From Promethearchaeota archaeon (GTDB lineage: Archaea > Asgardarchaeota > Lokiarchaeia > Sigyniarchaeales > SOKP01), in contig JAUWGH010000001.1 in the NCBI GenBank assembly GCA_030606485.1, positions 420,001 to 452,000 of the forward strand: DNA of 32,000 bases, given 5' to 3'. The position numbers and the translations under genes are program-made. Below, piece by piece: positions 4,917 through 9,224 of the stretch. A model generated the notes under the pieces. That model did no database searches and was not told where the DNA came from. It saw only the letters and a list, made by a program, of their open reading frames with translations. The stretch's first letter is position 1. Each line of letters starts with the position of its first letter.

Positions 4917-5603
4917 TTATTCTTCTTGAAGCCATACACGGAAGTGAGTAAAGTTTACATTATATTCCATAAATTTGTTCTCTATTAACCACAAACATTT
5001 TTCAGGAATAAGAAAAGCTCCTCGCCCCAATTTAAATCCTTTTATTTCTTGTACTAATCCATCTTTTTGATATTGATATACTTTTTTAAAATATCTCTTT
5101 TTAGTTTGATAACCATACAATATTCTTTTTATTTTCATTTTAGAAGATTTATCTAACTCTCTTAAATTGAATTTTATAATTAAATATGGTTTTAATTTCA
5201 AAGTTTTAAAGGGAATCTCCAAAAAATTCGAAGATCCATATATTAGACGACCTTCAGCTAAAATATTTTCAATAAAATTTGAATCCCATTTTTCAATTTC
5301 TTCAGGATAAATAAAAATACATTGGACTAATCGATCTATTTTTTTTTCTAAATCTAAGAAATTATTAAATACATTATTTTCTATAGATTTCGGAGTATTT
5401 TTTTTAAAAAATATACAAATATCAATATCACTCTCATCAGTAAAAGTTCCAGAAGTTAAAGAACCAAAAACCAATATGGAATCAATATTTTTAAATTTAG
5501 ATTGATTTTTTTTTATAAAATTTTTAGTATATTTTATTATTTTTTCTTGTTTTTCGTTTTTTTTAATGAATTTAATATTTTCTTCTTCTAATCTAAGATT
5601 CAT
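4917..5603 (-). CDS. MNT-type nucleotidyltransferase with ~90-aa C-terminal extension (possibly ferredoxin-like, Cas2/PaaX-like)
   Basis: GSLTSGTFTDESDID (GSx10DxD) and ILAEGRLIYG. The extension has YLIIKFNL...RILYG...LGRGAFLIP; its fold is inference only. Confidence 0.75.
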   Translation of the reverse strand: MNLRLEEENIKFIKKNEKQEKIIKYTKNFIKKNQSKFKNIDSILVFGSLTSGTFTDESDIDICIFFKKNTPKSIENNVFNNFLDLEKKIDRLVQCIFIYPEEIEKWDSNFIENILAEGRLIYGSSNFLEIPFKTLKLKPYLIIKFNLRELDKSSKMKIKRILYGYQTKKRYFKKVYQYQKDGLVQEIKGFKLGRGAFLIPEKCLWLIENKFMEYNVNFTHFRVWLQEE

Positions 5604-5698
5604 TTTCTAAAACCTTTAGGCAGGTTATCAAGACTAGTAAAAACCCAACAAATCTTGTTTAATTCTGTTATCCATTTTATTAAATAATAACACAATAT

Positions 5699-5760
5699 GG
5701 GCATAACCCTATGCCCTCTATCCCATCTACCGAAGATTTTGGGACTGCTTTTCCACTGCG
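5699..5760. other. GC-rich two-hairpin element, copy A
   Basis: GGGCATA-accc-TATGCCC, linker TCTA, TCCCA-TCT-accga-AGA-ttt-TGGGA. Homologous to 6873-6930. Confidence 0.6.
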
Positions 5761-6317
5761 TATGCTGTATCTACTCTAACCAATTGTTTCCCTCGGTATG
5801 AAGACTCTTTTTTCTCCCCTAACTATGATAGCTATAAGGCAACATTGAGCGGAAGTGAGCGTGGAGTTGCACCACATTCTTTATACCTCATAGAGACTTG
5901 TAAATACAATAATTCATAATAATTTTTAACTTATAAATTATGAAACTCCTATGATTTTCAATAAAATATTATATTTTTAAGATGGTATAAATAACTTTAA
6001 TTAGTTTTTGTGTTATTTCATTCTTTTCGTAATATAATAATGCGAATTTATATTAATAAAATTTTGTTTTCTATATTAATCTTTATCTTTTTATTGGGCG
6101 TTATGATTTTTAATTGATCTTCATCGATAAATGTATTTATGTGTTTTTCAGGTTCTAATTATTTATAAAATCATATGAGACTTTACCTTTAATTTTGAAT
6201 ATTTGATTGGACTATTGTGGAAAATATAATTATTATGGTCTATTTTAATTTCTATAATTAAGAAAATTGATTAATTTAATAGTAAACCTAATAATATAAA
6301 GTGAATTTTTTTTAAAA

Positions 6318-6797
6318 ATGAATCAAATCGTTGTTACTGGCGGTGGAGGATTTATTGGCTCACATGTTGCCAAATATTATGCAAAACAAAAGGAAAACCA
6401 TGTTATAATAATTGATAATTTATCTCGTGCGAAATTATTGCATAGAGATGATAAAAATGCAATGTATAACTGGAAATATTTACATCAGTATAAGAATATT
6501 ACATTTTATCAAGAAGATATAAAAGATTTTAACTTTTTAAAGGATTTATTTAAAAAAAATGAAATTGATACGTTAATTCATACTGCAGGACAAACTGCTG
6601 TAACCACTTCAGTAACCAATCCGAAAGAAGATTTCGAGAATAATTTAATTGGAACTTATAATCTATTGGAAGCTGTGAGAATTTCGAAATCAAATCCTGC
6701 AATAGTATTTTGTTCTACAAATAAAGTATTCAGAAATAACGTTAATAAATGTGATCTTGAGGAAAAAGAAACAAGATATCTGATTTAATTGATGCAG
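6318..6797 (+). pseudogene. Truncated paralog of CDP-paratose 2-epimerase with a 289-bp internal deletion
   Basis: Colinear with 7307-7768, then jumps at ATAT to sequence matching 8054-8073 (ctgatttaattgatgca). Frameshift and TAA at 6786-6788. Catalytic YxxxK region missing. Confidence 0.9.
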
Positions 6798-6872
6798 ACT
6801 ATTAAAATGAATAAAATTGTATTCAAATTATTTCAAATAATATTATCAAACAAATTTTGACTAATTATTTGT

Positions 6873-6990
6873 GGCATTAGTCCTAATGCCTCTATCCCGT
6901 CCGCCATAGGAGCTTTCGGGAATACTTTCCAATTTTCCCGATATGGGAATTCTTTTCCACAGTTGAGGGATATCCTCGGAGATGATCCGA
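6873..6990. other. GC-rich multi-hairpin element, copy B
   Basis: GGCATTA-gtcc-TAATGCC, TCTA, TCCCG-TCC-gccata-GGA-gcttt-CGGGA. Further stems TTCCC-gatat-GGGAA, GAGG-gatat-CCTC and TCGGA-gatga-TCCGA. Confidence 0.6.
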
Positions 6991-7306
6991 TGCAAAAACA
7001 ATTCTTTCTTATATAAATAAACAGAATATGTATTTAAATTTAACAAGTCAACAGATTTTCTATTAAAGTGAAAACTATAAAGAATTCAATGATATTATCA
7101 AATGGTATTAAACTTAATATGTTTTATTATTTTTTCTAACTATATTCGATCTCGATTCAATAAGATCAAAAAAAACAAATATAGGATTTAAATTTTTTAT
7201 AGATGGTTTTCTAGGTAGAATGTCGGATTAGAAAAGAATAAAAATTATTAGAAAAAAATTACTTCATTAGATACTGATAAATATTAAAAAAATAAACAGT
7301 TTAAAA

Positions 7307-8362
7307 ATGACTCTAATCGTAGTTACTGGTGGTGGAGGCTTTATAGGTTCTCATGTTGCAGAACATTATGCAAAACAAAAGGAAAATGAAGTTATAATAA
7401 TTGATAATTTGTCCCGTGCGAAATTACTCCATAAAGATGATAAAAATGCAATGTATAACTGGAATTACTTACATCAATATAAAAATATAGAATTCTTTCA
7501 AAATGATATAAGAGATTTCAACTTTTTAAAGAATTTATTCAATAAGATAGAAATTGATGCAATAATTCATACAGCCGGACAAACTGCTGTAACCACTTCA
7601 GTAACTGACCCAAAAGAAGATTTTGAAAATAATTTAATTGGTACATACAATATATTGGAAGCTGTGAGAATTTCAAAGTCGAATCCTGCAATAGTATTTT
7701 GTTCTACTAATAAAGTATTTGGAGATAACGTTAATAATTGTAATATTGAGGAAAAAGAAACAAGATATGTATTTACTTCAGAATATAATAATGGAATTTC
7801 AGAAAAATTTTCTACGGATTTATGCGAACATACTCCATACGGTGCTTCAAAATTTTGTGCCGATGTTTATGCCCAAGAATATGGACACATATACGGGTTA
7901 AAAACTGGCGTCTTCAGAATGTCGTGTATCTACGGAACTAGACAATTTGGTTTTGAGGATCAAGGTTGGGTAGCGCATTTTGTAATTTCAGCAATATTAG
8001 ATAAAAAAATCAATATATTTGGAGATGGAAAACAAGTTCGCGATTTATTATATATATCAGATTTAATTGATGCAAATGATAAATTCATTAAAAACTCTCA
8101 AAAATTAAAACATGATGTATTTTGTATGGGTGGTGGAAAGGAAAATACGCTTTCTTTACTTGAGTTAATCTCAATACTTAAAAATAAATTAGATAAAAAA
8201 ATAAATATAGAATTTTTTGATTGGAGACCAAGTGATCAAAAAGTCTACATCTCTGATATATCCAAAGCAAAACAAAAACTCAATTGGAACCCAAAAATAA
8301 ATCCTCAAGAAGGAATAGAAAAATTAATTAATTGGACAAAAAAAAAAAAAATAATCTTTTAA
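7307..8362 (+). CDS. rfbE: CDP-paratose 2-epimerase (CDP-tyvelose epimerase), extended SDR
   Basis: TGGGGFIGS, DNLSR, AGQTAVTTSV, STNKV, PYGASK, FRMSCIYGTRQFGFEDQGWVA and WRPSDQKVYISD are all characteristic of the RfbE/Tyv subfamily. Confidence 0.8.
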   Translation: MTLIVVTGGGGFIGSHVAEHYAKQKENEVIIIDNLSRAKLLHKDDKNAMYNWNYLHQYKNIEFFQNDIRDFNFLKNLFNKIEIDAIIHTAGQTAVTTSVTDPKEDFENNLIGTYNILEAVRISKSNPAIVFCSTNKVFGDNVNNCNIEEKETRYVFTSEYNNGISEKFSTDLCEHTPYGASKFCADVYAQEYGHIYGLKTGVFRMSCIYGTRQFGFEDQGWVAHFVISAILDKKINIFGDGKQVRDLLYISDLIDANDKFIKNSQKLKHDVFCMGGGKENTLSLLELISILKNKLDKKINIEFFDWRPSDQKVYISDISKAKQKLNWNPKINPQEGIEKLINWTKKKKIIF

Positions 8363-8432
8363 TTGTTTTAAATTAATTATTCCCTTCCAACAATTAAATA
8401 AATTAATAGAAATATAGAAAATTTGATATCAA

Positions 8433-9224
8433 TTGAAATTAAGCATTATTATTCCATGTTATAACGAAGAAGAAACAATAAAAGATCTATTGGATTGCCT
8501 TTTTAAAGTTAAATTTCCAATTGAGCGTGAAATTATAATTGTAGATGATGGTTCGCGTAGAAATCATCGAGAAATTATTAAAGAAGAAATTAAAACAAAT
8601 AAAATAAAATTTATTAGATTACCCCGTAATCAGGGAAAGGGTGTTGCGATAAGAGTAGGTTTAAGATATGCAACTGGTGATATCTTTATAATTCAAGATG
8701 CAGATTTTGAATATTTTCCAACAGACATCCCGAAATTATTAGAACCTATTTTGAATAAAGAAGTAAATGTTGTATATGGATCTAGATTTACAACAAAACC
8801 AAAAAATATGGCTAAAACCCATTATTACGCAAATATGCTTTTAACAAAAATAACAAATTTTATTTATAATGTTAATCTCACGGATATGGAAACTGGATAT
8901 AAATTATTTACAAAAAGCGTCTTAAATAATATTACTTTAAACACTCGAGAATTTGAATTTGAGCCCGAAATTACGGCGAAAATAATTTTGAATGGATTTA
9001 AAATTAAAGAATTACCCATTCAATATCATTACCGACAATTTGGTGCCTCAAAAATAAATTGGCTTGATGGTCTCGAAGGAGGTTTAATTCTTTTGCAACA
9101 TAGATTTTGTCCCAATTCAAAACTCTACCAATTTATTTATAATACCTATAAATTTCACATTAAAAAAATTGTTAATAAACTAACGAGATTTATTTCTAAA
9201 ATCATTTACATGCGGAGAATTTAA
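8433..9224 (+). CDS. GT2 glycosyltransferase, DPM1-like (polyprenol-phosphate sugar synthase family)
   Basis: IIIPCYNEE, VDDGS, NQGKG, QDADFEY, VYGSRF, DMETGYK and FEFEPE motifs. TTG start. Confidence 0.9.
   Translation: MKLSIIIPCYNEEETIKDLLDCLFKVKFPIEREIIIVDDGSRRNHREIIKEEIKTNKIKFIRLPRNQGKGVAIRVGLRYATGDIFIIQDADFEYFPTDIPKLLEPILNKEVNVVYGSRFTTKPKNMAKTHYYANMLLTKITNFIYNVNLTDMETGYKLFTKSVLNNITLNTREFEFEPEITAKIILNGFKIKELPIQYHYRQFGASKINWLDGLEGGLILLQHRFCPNSKLYQFIYNTYKFHIKKIVNKLTRFISKIIYMRRI

What the first reader, a model, noticed from the sequence alone, without database searches (positions are those of the whole stretch)
5699..6990. Unannotated two-hairpin element present twice, with compensatory base changes
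Seen: copy A (5699) GGGCATA-accc-TATGCCC TCTA TCCCA-TCT-accga-AGA-ttt-TGGGA. Copy B (6873) GGCATTA-gtcc-TAATGCC TCTA TCCCG-TCC-gccata-GGA-gcttt-CGGGA. Both are followed by a YTTT(T)CCA tract. Both arms of hairpin 1 change symmetrically, and hairpin 2 has two compensatory pairs (A-T/G-C and T-A/C-G) while its loops and bulges vary. B continues with three more stems, two with a GATAT loop. Both are GC-rich islands in ~25% GC DNA, each upstream of an epimerase paralog, and A also lies ~95 nt upstream of the minus-strand MNT gene. Inference: structure under selection. Candidates are a novel cis-regulatory or small RNA, or an IS200/IS605-type end or MITE. A weak TnpB-like peptide (YRGKQLVRVDTAY) is readable on the minus strand at ~5760-5800. 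I could not match any riboswitch or ribozyme I know.
Basis: partly seen in the sequence, partly recalled or inferred. Interest (0 to 1): 0.7.

Follow-up and report, generated by a model that had tools for sequence, protein, structure and literature searches.

The report
TnpB guide-RNA scaffold in mini-transposons
The two GC-rich double hairpins are the folded guide-RNA (omega RNA) part of two protein-less leftovers of an IS607-type transposon in an Asgard archaeon, a kind of element already described, so the finding is real but ordinary.

Summary

They must be read on the minus strand. There they are the last ~35 codons of a tnpB gene (…KAFPNSISVDGIEALGLMPQ…*) plus ~45 nt reaching the transposon right end.

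Together this forms a 138-nt, four-helix scaffold. It sits at the 3' end of every intact tnpB of this family in related Asgard genomes and in some Firmicutes.
- 93% of pair cells are paired, against 68% in shuffles.
- 24 of 30 pairs show double changes.
- G·U pairs greatly outnumber A·C pairs, which points to the tnpB sense strand.

Relatives carry a serine-recombinase tnpA upstream, so the element is IS607-like.

**Copy B** (6796-7144) is one of four ~350-nt gene-less derivatives in this genome. It keeps the left end, a TATA-like box, the first tnpA codons, and the tnpB 3' end with the right end. It sits in a decayed epimerase copy.

**Copy A** (about 5621-6012) is an older, eroded derivative. 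It is absent from the same site in a sister genome.

I found no riboswitch or known RNA family. The scan has reported the same kind of element in other Asgard genomes.

Verdict: new member of a known kind. Expression is untested.

The parts
6796..7144 (-). Copy B: complete 349-nt protein-less (MITE-like) derivative of an IS607-like tnpA-tnpB element. The left end starts TATAGTTAG at 7144. The right end finishes ...AATAGTCT at 6796.
   Evidence: Four copies in this genome align end to end and diverge outside these bounds. At least 7 full-length copies occur in each of two sister genomes, matching query 897-1245, which equals window 6796-7144. Positions 4-165 are 90% identical to the left end of the C12 tnpB element, and positions 220-352 are 93% identical to its 3' end.
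6794..6931 (-). It still reads as the TnpB tail KVFPKAPMADGIEALGLMPQIISQNLFDNII*, with the stop inside 6833-6847.
   Evidence: Covariance model R1 scores 147.1 bits, E 1.5e-29. The minimum-energy fold gives the same four helices, z -2.9. tblastn with TnpB residues 372-399 matches here.
6930..6961 (-). 32-nt linker of copy B of unknown origin. It contains the TTCCCatatcGGGAA stem and resembles a shortened duplicate of P1.
   Evidence: This is the only part of the element without a match in the parent elements.
6962..6995 (-). Remnant of the tnpA start (TTG CAT CGG ATC ATC TCC GAG GAT ATC CCT CAA C = (M)HRIISEDIPQ).
   Evidence: 98% identical to the left end and tnpA start of G002:C54. There the frame continues into an HTH_17-like N-terminus, E 3.8e-4, which is below Pfam's cut-off.
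7008..7017 (-). TATA-box-like TTTATATAAG, about 22 nt upstream of the tnpA start remnant. It is a candidate archaeal promoter that would drive the scaffold in copy B.
   Evidence: Position. Conserved in all four copies and in the tnpB-bearing parents. Promoter function is inferred, not shown.
6776..6795 (-). Flank immediately 3' of the copy B right end. This is the would-be 20-nt guide GCATCAATTAAATCAGATAT.
   Evidence: Conservation among copies stops at 6796. It matches window 8054-8073 at 19 of 20 positions.
8054..8074 (+). Uninterrupted counterpart of the copy B insertion site inside the intact epimerase paralog (codons ..YISDLIDA|NDK..).
   Evidence: A 21-nt match at 95% to 6776-6796. The paralog then continues with aaatgataaa where the truncated copy continues with the element.
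6318..6788 (+). Decayed epimerase copy. It keeps 155 N-terminal codons (85% identical to the paralog at 7307-8362). An internal deletion follows, then the ISDLIDA codons abut the right end of copy B.
   Evidence: This copy is syntenic with the single epimerase gene of sister genomes.
5621..6012 (-). Copy A: an older, eroded ~390-nt protein-less derivative of a related subfamily. Present in G000 and G002 and absent from the same site in G001.
   Evidence: The G001 site reads ...GAGAGTTCC|TATAATTTC..., with 103 nt where G000 has 395. The G002 orthologue is 94-96% identical. In G000 the left terminus (11 nt) and the DNA beyond the right flank (267 nt) are deleted relative to G002.
5620..5754 (-). 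Copy A omega-RNA-like scaffold: P1 5721-5744 (hairpin 2), P2 5699-5716 (hairpin 1), P3 5662-5696. The ACTAGTCT end motif is at 5631-5638.
   Evidence: R1 scores 94.1 bits, E 5e-18. Fold. The tail peptide from 5683-5757(-) is 67% identical to the last 24 residues of the G002:C54 TnpB.
5755..5895 (-). GC-rich 5' part of copy A, of unresolved origin. It is shared with protein-less copies in genome G019 and preceded by a TATA-like ATTTACAAG at 5897-5907.
   Evidence: Alignment with four G019 copies. No Pfam hit for its 33-codon ORF.

Best explanation
Both 'two-hairpin elements' are the 5' half of the omega-RNA (reRNA) scaffold of an IS607-like transposon family (serine-recombinase tnpA, tnpB, right-end guide RNA), read on the window's minus strand.

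In intact elements the scaffold (about 138 nt, helices P1-P4) overlaps the last ~35 codons of tnpB and runs ~45 nt further to the right end, ...AATAGTCT. The ~16-20 nt of flanking DNA that follow would be the guide.

Copy B is a complete 349-nt protein-less deletion derivative. It consists of the left end, a TATA-like box, the first ~12 tnpA codons, a linker, and the tnpB 3' end with the right end.

Copy A is an older, eroded derivative of a sister subfamily.

Inferred, not shown:
- The element is transcribed from the retained tnpA promoter.
- The RNA is bound in trans by the one intact TnpB of this genome (C10:196789-197994, 402 aa).
- The complex would cut TAM-flanked DNA matching the flank, as shown for IS605 and IS607 TnpBs elsewhere.

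Copy A is most likely inert. The hairpin covariation reflects family-wide selection on the RNA, which these copies inherited.
For: 1. Position and coding. In the two tnpB-bearing copies of this genome the hairpins lie inside the ORF end ...NADVNGAYNIMKKAFPNSISVDGIEVLGLIPQIINQNIVDNII*. That protein hits OrfB_IS605 and Cas12f1-like_TNB above Pfam's cut-offs.

2. Family size. There are 8 copies in the genome. Scaffold hits occur in 15 of 37 genomes of the family. They lie at the 3' end of tnpB in Asgard and Firmicutes relatives.

3. Structure. RNAalifold on plain MAFFT alignments recovers the two hairpins plus two more helices, and 15 of 30 pairs have compensatory changes. On model-fitted alignments 92-93% of cells are paired, against 68-70% in shuffles and 35-52% when partners are slid; 24 of 30 pairs show double changes.

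4. Strand. G·U pairs number 64 and A·C pairs 14.

5. Selection acts on the nucleic acid, not only the protein. Pairing is kept in protein-less copies whose frame is broken; for example, the C5 copy has TAG inside P2. Compensatory changes also alter residues (A/V paired with M/I).

6. IS607 type. Relatives have a resolvase-domain protein with a MerR/HTH-like N-terminus directly upstream of tnpB. G000 keeps only remnants.

7. Mobility. Copies have unrelated flanks. There is an empty site for copy A in G001. An uninterrupted homologous site for copy B lies in the neighbouring paralog.

8. TnpB looks intact. The family-invariant residues D182, E321 and D362 are present, along with the NADxN motif, and glycine sits at the canonical RuvC-II position. 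This fits the rearranged-RuvC-II TnpB clades described in PMC10691335.

9. Literature. Protein-less IS605 derivatives (PATEs) 'often encode omega RNAs' that TnpBs encoded elsewhere would have to act on in trans (PMC10055086). IS607 elements encode right-end omega RNAs used by TnpB (10.1101/2023.11.20.567912).
Against: - There is no direct evidence of transcription, processing or TnpB binding.
- No Rfam family matches.
- No intact tnpA of this type exists in this genome, so the copies cannot move on their own now.
- Copy A carries 10 extra nt (TGATAACCTG) between the AGTCT end motif and the sequence of the empty site. Its would-be guide is therefore out of register with its target.
- Copy A has lost its left terminus.
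- Since the G000/G002 split, copy A has diverged about as much as the surrounding intergenic DNA (94-96%). That gives no sign of current selection on it.
- The TAM is not defined. Left flanks share only a weak WWT.
- The covariation alignments A3 and A4 were fitted to the model, which favours the structure.
Confidence: 0.88

Rival explanations
1. A host cis-regulatory or small RNA (riboswitch-like) controlling the epimerase genes downstream on the plus strand.
For: Both copies lie upstream of epimerase ORFs on the plus strand. Both strands fold about equally well by energy.
Against: - The same scaffold occurs at 6 other, unrelated loci in this genome and in many other genomes, always tied to tnpB or its ends.
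- The G·U versus A·C asymmetry points to the minus strand.
- The epimerase ORF after copy A is a dead fragment, and copy B is inserted into it.
- The sister genome G001 has the epimerase without either element.
- No Rfam hit.
Confidence: 0.02
2. DNA-level hairpins: subterminal imperfect palindromes recognised as single-stranded DNA by a Y1 TnpA, as at IS200/IS605 ends.
For: TnpB is most often found in IS200/IS605 elements, whose ends carry such hairpins (background in PMC10055086).
Against: - No Y1 transposase was found in this 100%-complete genome.
- Relatives carry a serine recombinase instead. IS607 ends lack palindromes (10.1101/2023.11.20.567912).
- P1 and P2 lie 77-126 nt inside the right end, within the ORF, and no matching hairpin exists at the left end.
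- There are 64 G·U pairs, which are A·C mismatches on the complementary strand and poorly tolerated in DNA.
Confidence: 0.04
3. The hairpins are a by-product of protein conservation in the TnpB C-terminal tail, with no selected nucleic-acid structure.
For: The tail ...FPN..SVDGIE..GL.P is conserved as protein across the family.
Against: - Paired positions change together in ways that alter the residues (A/V with M/I; G.G..C).
- Pairing persists in copies whose frame is broken by stops.
- Helices P3 and P4 covary although they lie largely or wholly outside the ORF.
Confidence: 0.03
4. Both window copies are inert relics. They came from an omega-RNA scaffold but are no longer transcribed or used, and the structure is merely inherited.
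For: - No intact tnpA in the genome.
- Copy A has eroded ends, an out-of-register flank, and divergence that looks neutral against G002.
- The left flank of copy B has been rearranged, because the rest of the epimerase is missing there.
Against: - Copy B keeps every helix, the TATA-like box and both termini, and scores as high as the scaffolds of intact tnpB genes (147 bits against 147-153).
- One intact TnpB of the same subfamily is present.
Confidence: 0.35

Closest known systems
IS607-family elements with TnpB and a right-end omega RNA (e.g. the Clostridium botulinum IS607 IStron studied in 10.1101/2023.11.20.567912)
   Same: - A serine-recombinase tnpA lies upstream of tnpB.
- The guide-RNA scaffold overlaps the tnpB 3' end and the right end.
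- There are no terminal inverted repeats and no target duplication.
- The guide is the flanking DNA.
   Different: - The host is archaeal (Asgard) and there is no group I intron.
- The flanks are AT-rich rather than carrying the TGGG motif.
- The TnpB lacks the C4 zinc finger and has glycine at the canonical RuvC-II position with a conserved glutamate elsewhere.
- No activity of this family has been tested.
Omega-RNA-encoding PATEs / minimal non-autonomous IS200/IS605 elements of Geobacillus stearothermophilus (PMC10055086)
   Same: These are protein-less derivatives that keep both transposon ends and the omega-RNA scaffold. They are multi-copy and presumed to be served in trans by TnpA and TnpB encoded elsewhere.
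   Different: The parent here is IS607-like, with a double-stranded-DNA serine recombinase, not a Y1 single-stranded-DNA transposon. The ends are not palindromic. Copy B also keeps the tnpA promoter-like box and the first tnpA codons.
TnpB clades with a rearranged RuvC-II site and the NADxN RuvC-III motif (PMC10691335)
   Same: The NADVN motif, glycine at the canonical RuvC-II glutamate position, an invariant alternative glutamate (E321 in ..E.YTSK..), and association with a serine recombinase.
   Different: I did not place the protein in that paper's tree. The assignment rests on motifs only.

Membership tests
TnpB omega RNA (reRNA) scaffold | Lies on the tnpB sense strand, overlaps the 3' end of the tnpB ORF and runs to the transposon right end | tested here: met
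   The scaffold covers the last ~35 codons plus ~45 nt in the two tnpB-bearing copies and in all intact relatives.
TnpB omega RNA (reRNA) scaffold | Conserved secondary structure supported by covariation | tested here: met
   (plain MAFFT alignments). Searches give 92-93% paired against 68-70% shuffled, and 24 of 30 pairs with double changes.
TnpB omega RNA (reRNA) scaffold | Sharp boundary between the conserved scaffold and a variable guide at the right end | tested here: met
   Conservation stops after ...AATAGTCT in all copies.
TnpB omega RNA (reRNA) scaffold | The guide matches the TAM-flanked empty target site | tested here: inconclusive
   The copy B flank matches the uninterrupted paralog site at 19 of 20 positions, next to a T-rich flank. 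Copy A has 10 extra nt between the end motif and the empty-site sequence. The TAM is not defined.
TnpB omega RNA (reRNA) scaffold | Transcribed, processed and bound by TnpB | not testable with these tools
   No RNA run holding this DNA was available.
IS607 family | Serine-recombinase TnpA (HTH plus resolvase catalytic domain) encoded upstream of tnpB | tested here: met
   Resolvase PF00239 at E 1.6e-19 and 2.6e-17 in relatives L030 and L028. Only remnants are present in this genome.
IS607 family | No terminal inverted repeats and no target-site duplication | tested here: met
   The left end TATAGTTAG and right end AATAGTCT share a direct ATAGT, not an inverted repeat. The flanks of 6 copies show no duplication.
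MITE/PATE-like non-autonomous derivative | Both ends of the parent element retained, interior deleted, no intact gene | tested here: met
   Copy B matches the left end (90-98%) and the tnpB 3' end with the right end (93%) of the parents.
MITE/PATE-like non-autonomous derivative | Multiple copies at unrelated loci, with presence/absence differences between genomes | tested here: met
   4 copies in G000 and at least 7 each in G002 and G003. Copy A is absent at the orthologous site of G001.
IS200/IS605 (Y1 TnpA) transposon end | Y1 HUH transposase in the element or genome, and subterminal hairpins at both ends | tested here: not met
   PF01797 was not found in the 100%-complete genome. There is no left-end hairpin, and P1 and P2 lie 77-126 nt from the right end.
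Any Rfam family (riboswitch, ribozyme, sRNA) | Match at or above the family's gathering score | tested here: not met
   No hits at gathering thresholds. The best sub-threshold hit is RAGATH-22, 23 bits against a threshold of 120.

The most novel reading that the evidence does not exclude
The copy B guide-equivalent flank matches, at 19 of 20 positions and next to a T-rich flank, a site inside the intact epimerase paralog 1.3 kb away (8054-8073). If copy B is transcribed and loaded onto the genome's one intact TnpB, a protein-less mini-transposon would direct RNA-guided cutting or binding at a live host glycosylation gene. That could drive gene conversion or rearrangement between the tandem epimerase copies, or act as a regulator. 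Simple ancestry explains the match equally well: the element inserted into a duplicate of that gene.
Probability: 0.05. Interest if true: 0.55.

Novelty: new member of a known kind. Interest (0 to 1): 0.2.

Why it matters
This explains two unannotated GC-rich structured islands and stops them being taken for a new riboswitch or sRNA.

It provides a covariance-supported, 138-nt, four-helix model for the guide-RNA scaffold of one TnpB subfamily. That subfamily lacks the zinc finger, has a rearranged RuvC-II site, and is linked to IS607. It is shared by Asgard archaea and some Firmicutes.

It adds IS607-derived, protein-less guide-RNA carriers to the IS605 PATEs already described.

It also shows these elements reshaping a surface-glycan gene cluster, where an epimerase copy has been truncated.

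None of this changes current understanding of TnpB systems.

Tried and rejected
- **Rfam.** The gathering-threshold scan of the whole window and the permissive scan of 5600-7100 gave nothing meaningful.
- **tRNA/tmRNA scan.** None found.
- **RNA evidence.** No RNA holder was listed. Three cold-seep metatranscriptome runs from the same study laid no contig on 5400-7400. This says nothing about expression either way.
No significant alignment to TnpBs of this family, and tblastn with the intact TnpB finds nothing there.
- **The 33-codon ORF at the 5' end of copy A (5779-5877, minus strand).** I considered it as a tnpA N-terminal remnant. It has no Pfam hit, so its origin stays unresolved.
- **CATAGTTAGGGG at 5816-5827 as the left end of copy A.** Rejected. 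The motif is internal and conserved in the G019 copies, and the empty site in G001 puts the left end near 6012.
- **Link to the characterised ISAam1 TnpB of Anoxybacillus.** I recalled from memory that ISAam1 comes from Anoxybacillus; PMC11224200 does not name the organism. My model hits Anoxybacillus tnpB 3' ends. The ISAam1 reRNA sequence was not in the paper's held supplements, so the link is untested.
- **PDB sequence search with the TnpB.** Only weak Cas12f matches, best E 4.6e-7.
- **The nhmmer hit at C10:419427 (E 0.12).** It lies in a coding region and I judged it chance.
Full report
**1. The observation**

- Copy A: GGGCATAaccCTATGCCC at 5699-5716, then TCTA, then TCCCA...TGGGA.
- Copy B: GGCATTAgtccTAATGCC at 6873-6890, then TCTA, then TCCCG...CGGGA.

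Both lie in 40-48% GC islands within DNA of 13-25% GC. When aligned column by column, hairpin 1 differs at three pairs by changes on both sides. The outer stem of hairpin 2 differs at one pair.

**2. What the hairpins are**

A BLAST of copy A against the whole genome found further partial copies (13 contigs, 3.75 Mb, 29% GC; the window is C10:420001-452000). nhmmer found eight copies in total.

In two of them the motif continues, on what is the window's minus strand, into a long ORF. Its end reads ...NADVNGAYNIMKKAFPNSISVDGIEVLGLIPQIINQNIVDNII*.
- The intact 402-aa protein matches OrfB_IS605 at 2.7e-17 and Cas12f1-like_TNB at 2.1e-9, both above Pfam's cut-offs. It is a TnpB.
- The second copy has one in-frame stop.

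- Copy B still translates to KVFPKAPMADGIEALGLMPQIISQNLFDNII*.
- Copy A translates to KAVPKSSVDGIEGIGLCPYCVII. This is 67% identical to the last 24 residues of a 395-aa TnpB of sister genome G002.

**3. The structure is selected, and as RNA on the tnpB strand**

TnpB relatives are common in genomes of the same family, order and class (30 of 61 genomes). I took the 3' ends of 19 of them together with the copies of this genome.
- RNAalifold on plain MAFFT alignments recovers both hairpins (7 of 13 pairs with compensatory changes).
- On the closer subset it finds two further helices, P3 and P4, for 30 pairs in all, 15 of them with compensatory changes.

A covariance model (R1, 138 positions) finds exactly the eight genomic copies. 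It also finds the 3' end of every intact tnpB tested, including bacterial homologues from Anoxybacillus, Mitsuokella and Lachnospiraceae.

Pair counts on the model-fitted alignments:

| Alignment | Cells paired | Shuffled | Partners slid | Pairs with double changes |
|---|---|---|---|---|
| 29 sequences | 92.1% | 69.5% | 35-52% | 24 of 30 |
| 42 sequences | 92.9% | 67.8% | 37-45% | 24 of 30 |

These alignments are fitted to the model, so the counts lean towards it. The MAFFT-only results point the same way.

Three further observations matter.
- G·U pairs outnumber A·C combinations 64 to 14. That selects the tnpB sense strand and argues for RNA rather than DNA pairing.
- Pairing is kept in protein-less copies whose frame is broken; the C5 copy, for example, has TAG inside P2.
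- P3 and P4 covary although they lie largely or wholly outside the ORF.

Selection therefore acts on the nucleic acid. Single-sequence folds of both window copies give the same four helices, with z about -2.5 to -2.9. The plus strand folds about as well, so energy alone does not choose the strand.

**4. Transposon type**

No Y1 transposase (PF01797) is detectable in this 100%-complete genome. In relatives, the gene directly upstream of tnpB is a roughly 200-aa protein with an HTH and a resolvase catalytic domain (PF00239, E 1.6e-19 and 2.6e-17).

In this genome only remnants survive: an HTH-like start before one tnpB and a 60-residue C-terminal piece before the other.

The ends are TATAGTTAG... 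on the left and ...AATAGTCT on the right. They share a direct ATAGT, with no inverted repeat and no target duplication.

This is the IS607 organisation. For IS607, TnpB and a right-end omega RNA have been shown experimentally to cut the vacated donor site and so retain the transposon (10.1101/2023.11.20.567912).

The TnpB has these motif features:
- the family-invariant residues D182, E321 and D362;
- the NADxN motif;
- an invariant glycine where the canonical RuvC-II glutamate would be;
- no C4 zinc finger.

These match the rearranged-RuvC-II and zinc-finger-loss variants described in PMC10691335. I assigned this by motifs only.

**5. Copy B**

Four copies in this genome align over about 350 nt and diverge outside it. 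Two sister genomes each have at least seven full-length copies whose matches begin and end at window 6796 and 7144.

The element is built from these pieces:
- the left end (90% identical to the C12 tnpB element);
- a TATA-like TTTATATAAG at 7008-7017;
- the first ~12 tnpA codons at 6962-6995, 98% identical to the left end of G002:C54, where the frame continues into an HTH;
- a 32-nt linker;
- the last 133 nt of the parent, 93% identical.

Copy B sits at the end of a truncated epimerase ORF (6318-6788). That ORF keeps 155 codons at 85% identity to the intact paralog at 7307-8362. It then jumps, through an internal deletion, to the codons ISDLIDA, which abut the right end.

The paralog keeps the uninterrupted site at 8054-8074. 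That site matches the 20-nt guide-equivalent flank at 19 positions. The rest of the epimerase is not on the left side of the element, so that side was later rearranged.

**6. Copy A**

Its scaffold scores 94 bits. It is closest to the omega-RNA region of a 395-398-aa TnpB subfamily in G002 and G003, at 74% nucleotide identity.

Its GC-rich 5' part (5755-5895) is shared with protein-less copies in genome G019. The origin of that part is unresolved.

The same insertion is present at the orthologous locus of G002 at 94-96% identity. It is absent from G001, where 103 nt replace 395 nt. That sets the insert at about 5621-6012.

Relative to G002, this genome has lost 11 nt at the left terminus. It has also lost 267 nt just beyond the right flank, between the element and the minus-strand nucleotidyltransferase gene.

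Ten nt (TGATAACCTG) lie between the AGTCT end motif and the sequence of the empty site. A guide taken from the flank would therefore not match its own target.

Divergence between G000 and G002 inside copy A is similar to that of the neighbouring intergenic DNA. Copy A is best read as a decayed relic.

**7. How it most likely works**

Shown here:
- identity of the hairpins as the tnpB 3' end and right end;
- the conserved four-helix structure on the tnpB strand;
- the IS607-like parent;
- the protein-less multi-copy derivatives;
- insertion polymorphism.

Inferred from established work on IS605 and IS607 TnpBs (PMC10055086; 10.1101/2023.11.20.567912):
- The RNA is made from the element. In copy B this would be from the retained tnpA promoter-like box.
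- The scaffold binds TnpB.
- The adjacent 16-20 nt of flank guide cleavage of matching, TAM-flanked DNA.
- Protein-less copies depend on TnpB, and on TnpA for movement, supplied in trans.

This genome has one intact TnpB of the subfamily and no intact TnpA.

No transcription data could be obtained.

**8. Comparison with what is known, and novelty**

The closest known systems are:
- IS607 tnpA-tnpB-omega-RNA elements;
- the omega-RNA-bearing PATEs of IS605 elements, which are described as needing TnpB in trans (PMC10055086).

Differences from these:
- the Asgard host; record titles of close relatives read Promethearchaeota;
- the serine-recombinase parent for a protein-less derivative;
- the zinc-finger-less TnpB with a rearranged RuvC-II site.

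Earlier reports of this scan describe the same kind of element in other Asgard genomes and one sister copy in this genome. I confirmed that sister copy, C10:187768-187905, as a member.

Verdict: a real, well-supported feature that is a new member of a known kind. Interest is low.

Noticed in passing
window 6318-6788 and 7307-8362: These are tandem epimerase genes. The upstream copy is syntenic with the single gene of sister genomes. It is dead: it keeps 155 codons, has an internal deletion of about 280 nt, has the mini-transposon inserted after the ISDLIDA codons, and has lost its 3' remainder. The downstream copy is intact.
   Followed up: partly
L064:1515-3293 (G002:C195), equivalent to window 7925/7926: In sister genome G002 the single epimerase gene reads through a roughly 1.3-kb in-frame insert that starts CLTGDT.. 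and ends ..VHNC. It looks like an intein but was not checked with Pfam. Identity between G000 and G002 jumps from 85% to 94% exactly at that point, which suggests gene conversion around an intein site.
   Followed up: partly
window 5603-5631; L048:1780-2046 (G002:C195): G002 has 267 nt between copy A and the start of the minus-strand nucleotidyltransferase gene, carrying a small ORF (..AFHLIESCTAKFKVHINKHQRVRKVLERNHEIF..). This genome has deleted it, so copy A now ends 28 nt before that gene's start codon and points the same way. By eye the lost ORF might be a HEPN-type partner. That was not tested.
   Followed up: no
window 8377-9219: The stretch holding the glycosyltransferase-like ORF 8433-9224 is missing from the orthologous loci of G001 and G002. 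There, the flanks 8376 and 9220 overlap by about 10 nt, so nothing lies between them. It is present in G003, so it is a recent gain or loss within the glycan cluster.
   Followed up: no
genome G019 (same family), e.g. L055-L059: G019 has at least 10 scaffold copies. At least four of them (L055-L057, L059) are protein-less elements like copy A. No TnpB match to the 402-aa query at E<=1e-10 was found there. These may be guide-RNA carriers without a cognate nuclease of this subfamily in the assembly.
   Followed up: partly
L094-L112 (Anoxybacillus, Mitsuokella, Lachnospiraceae and others): Bacterial TnpBs 40-47% identical to the Asgard protein carry the same four-helix scaffold at their 3' ends (42-67 bits with model R1). 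This points to transfer of this TnpB/omega-RNA type between domains.
   Followed up: partly
G000:C2:436035-436389: An eighth, degraded copy: a tnpB C-terminal remnant (..VINADVDASYNILKKAFSNAFSADGIG..) with a scaffold scoring 72.7 bits. P2 is rebuilt with entirely different letters (GTTGT..ACAAC).
   Followed up: partly
G000:C10:379161-379823: A third tnpB (409-aa open frame), only 26% identical to the one studied here, lies 41 kb before the window. Its own guide RNA and derivatives were not examined.
   Followed up: no
window 5621-5630: Ten nt (TGATAACCTG on the minus strand) lie between the AGTCT end motif of copy A and the sequence of the empty site in G001. They may be flank carried over from a previous location through use of a shifted crossover site, or the result of a small deletion in G001.
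   Followed up: no
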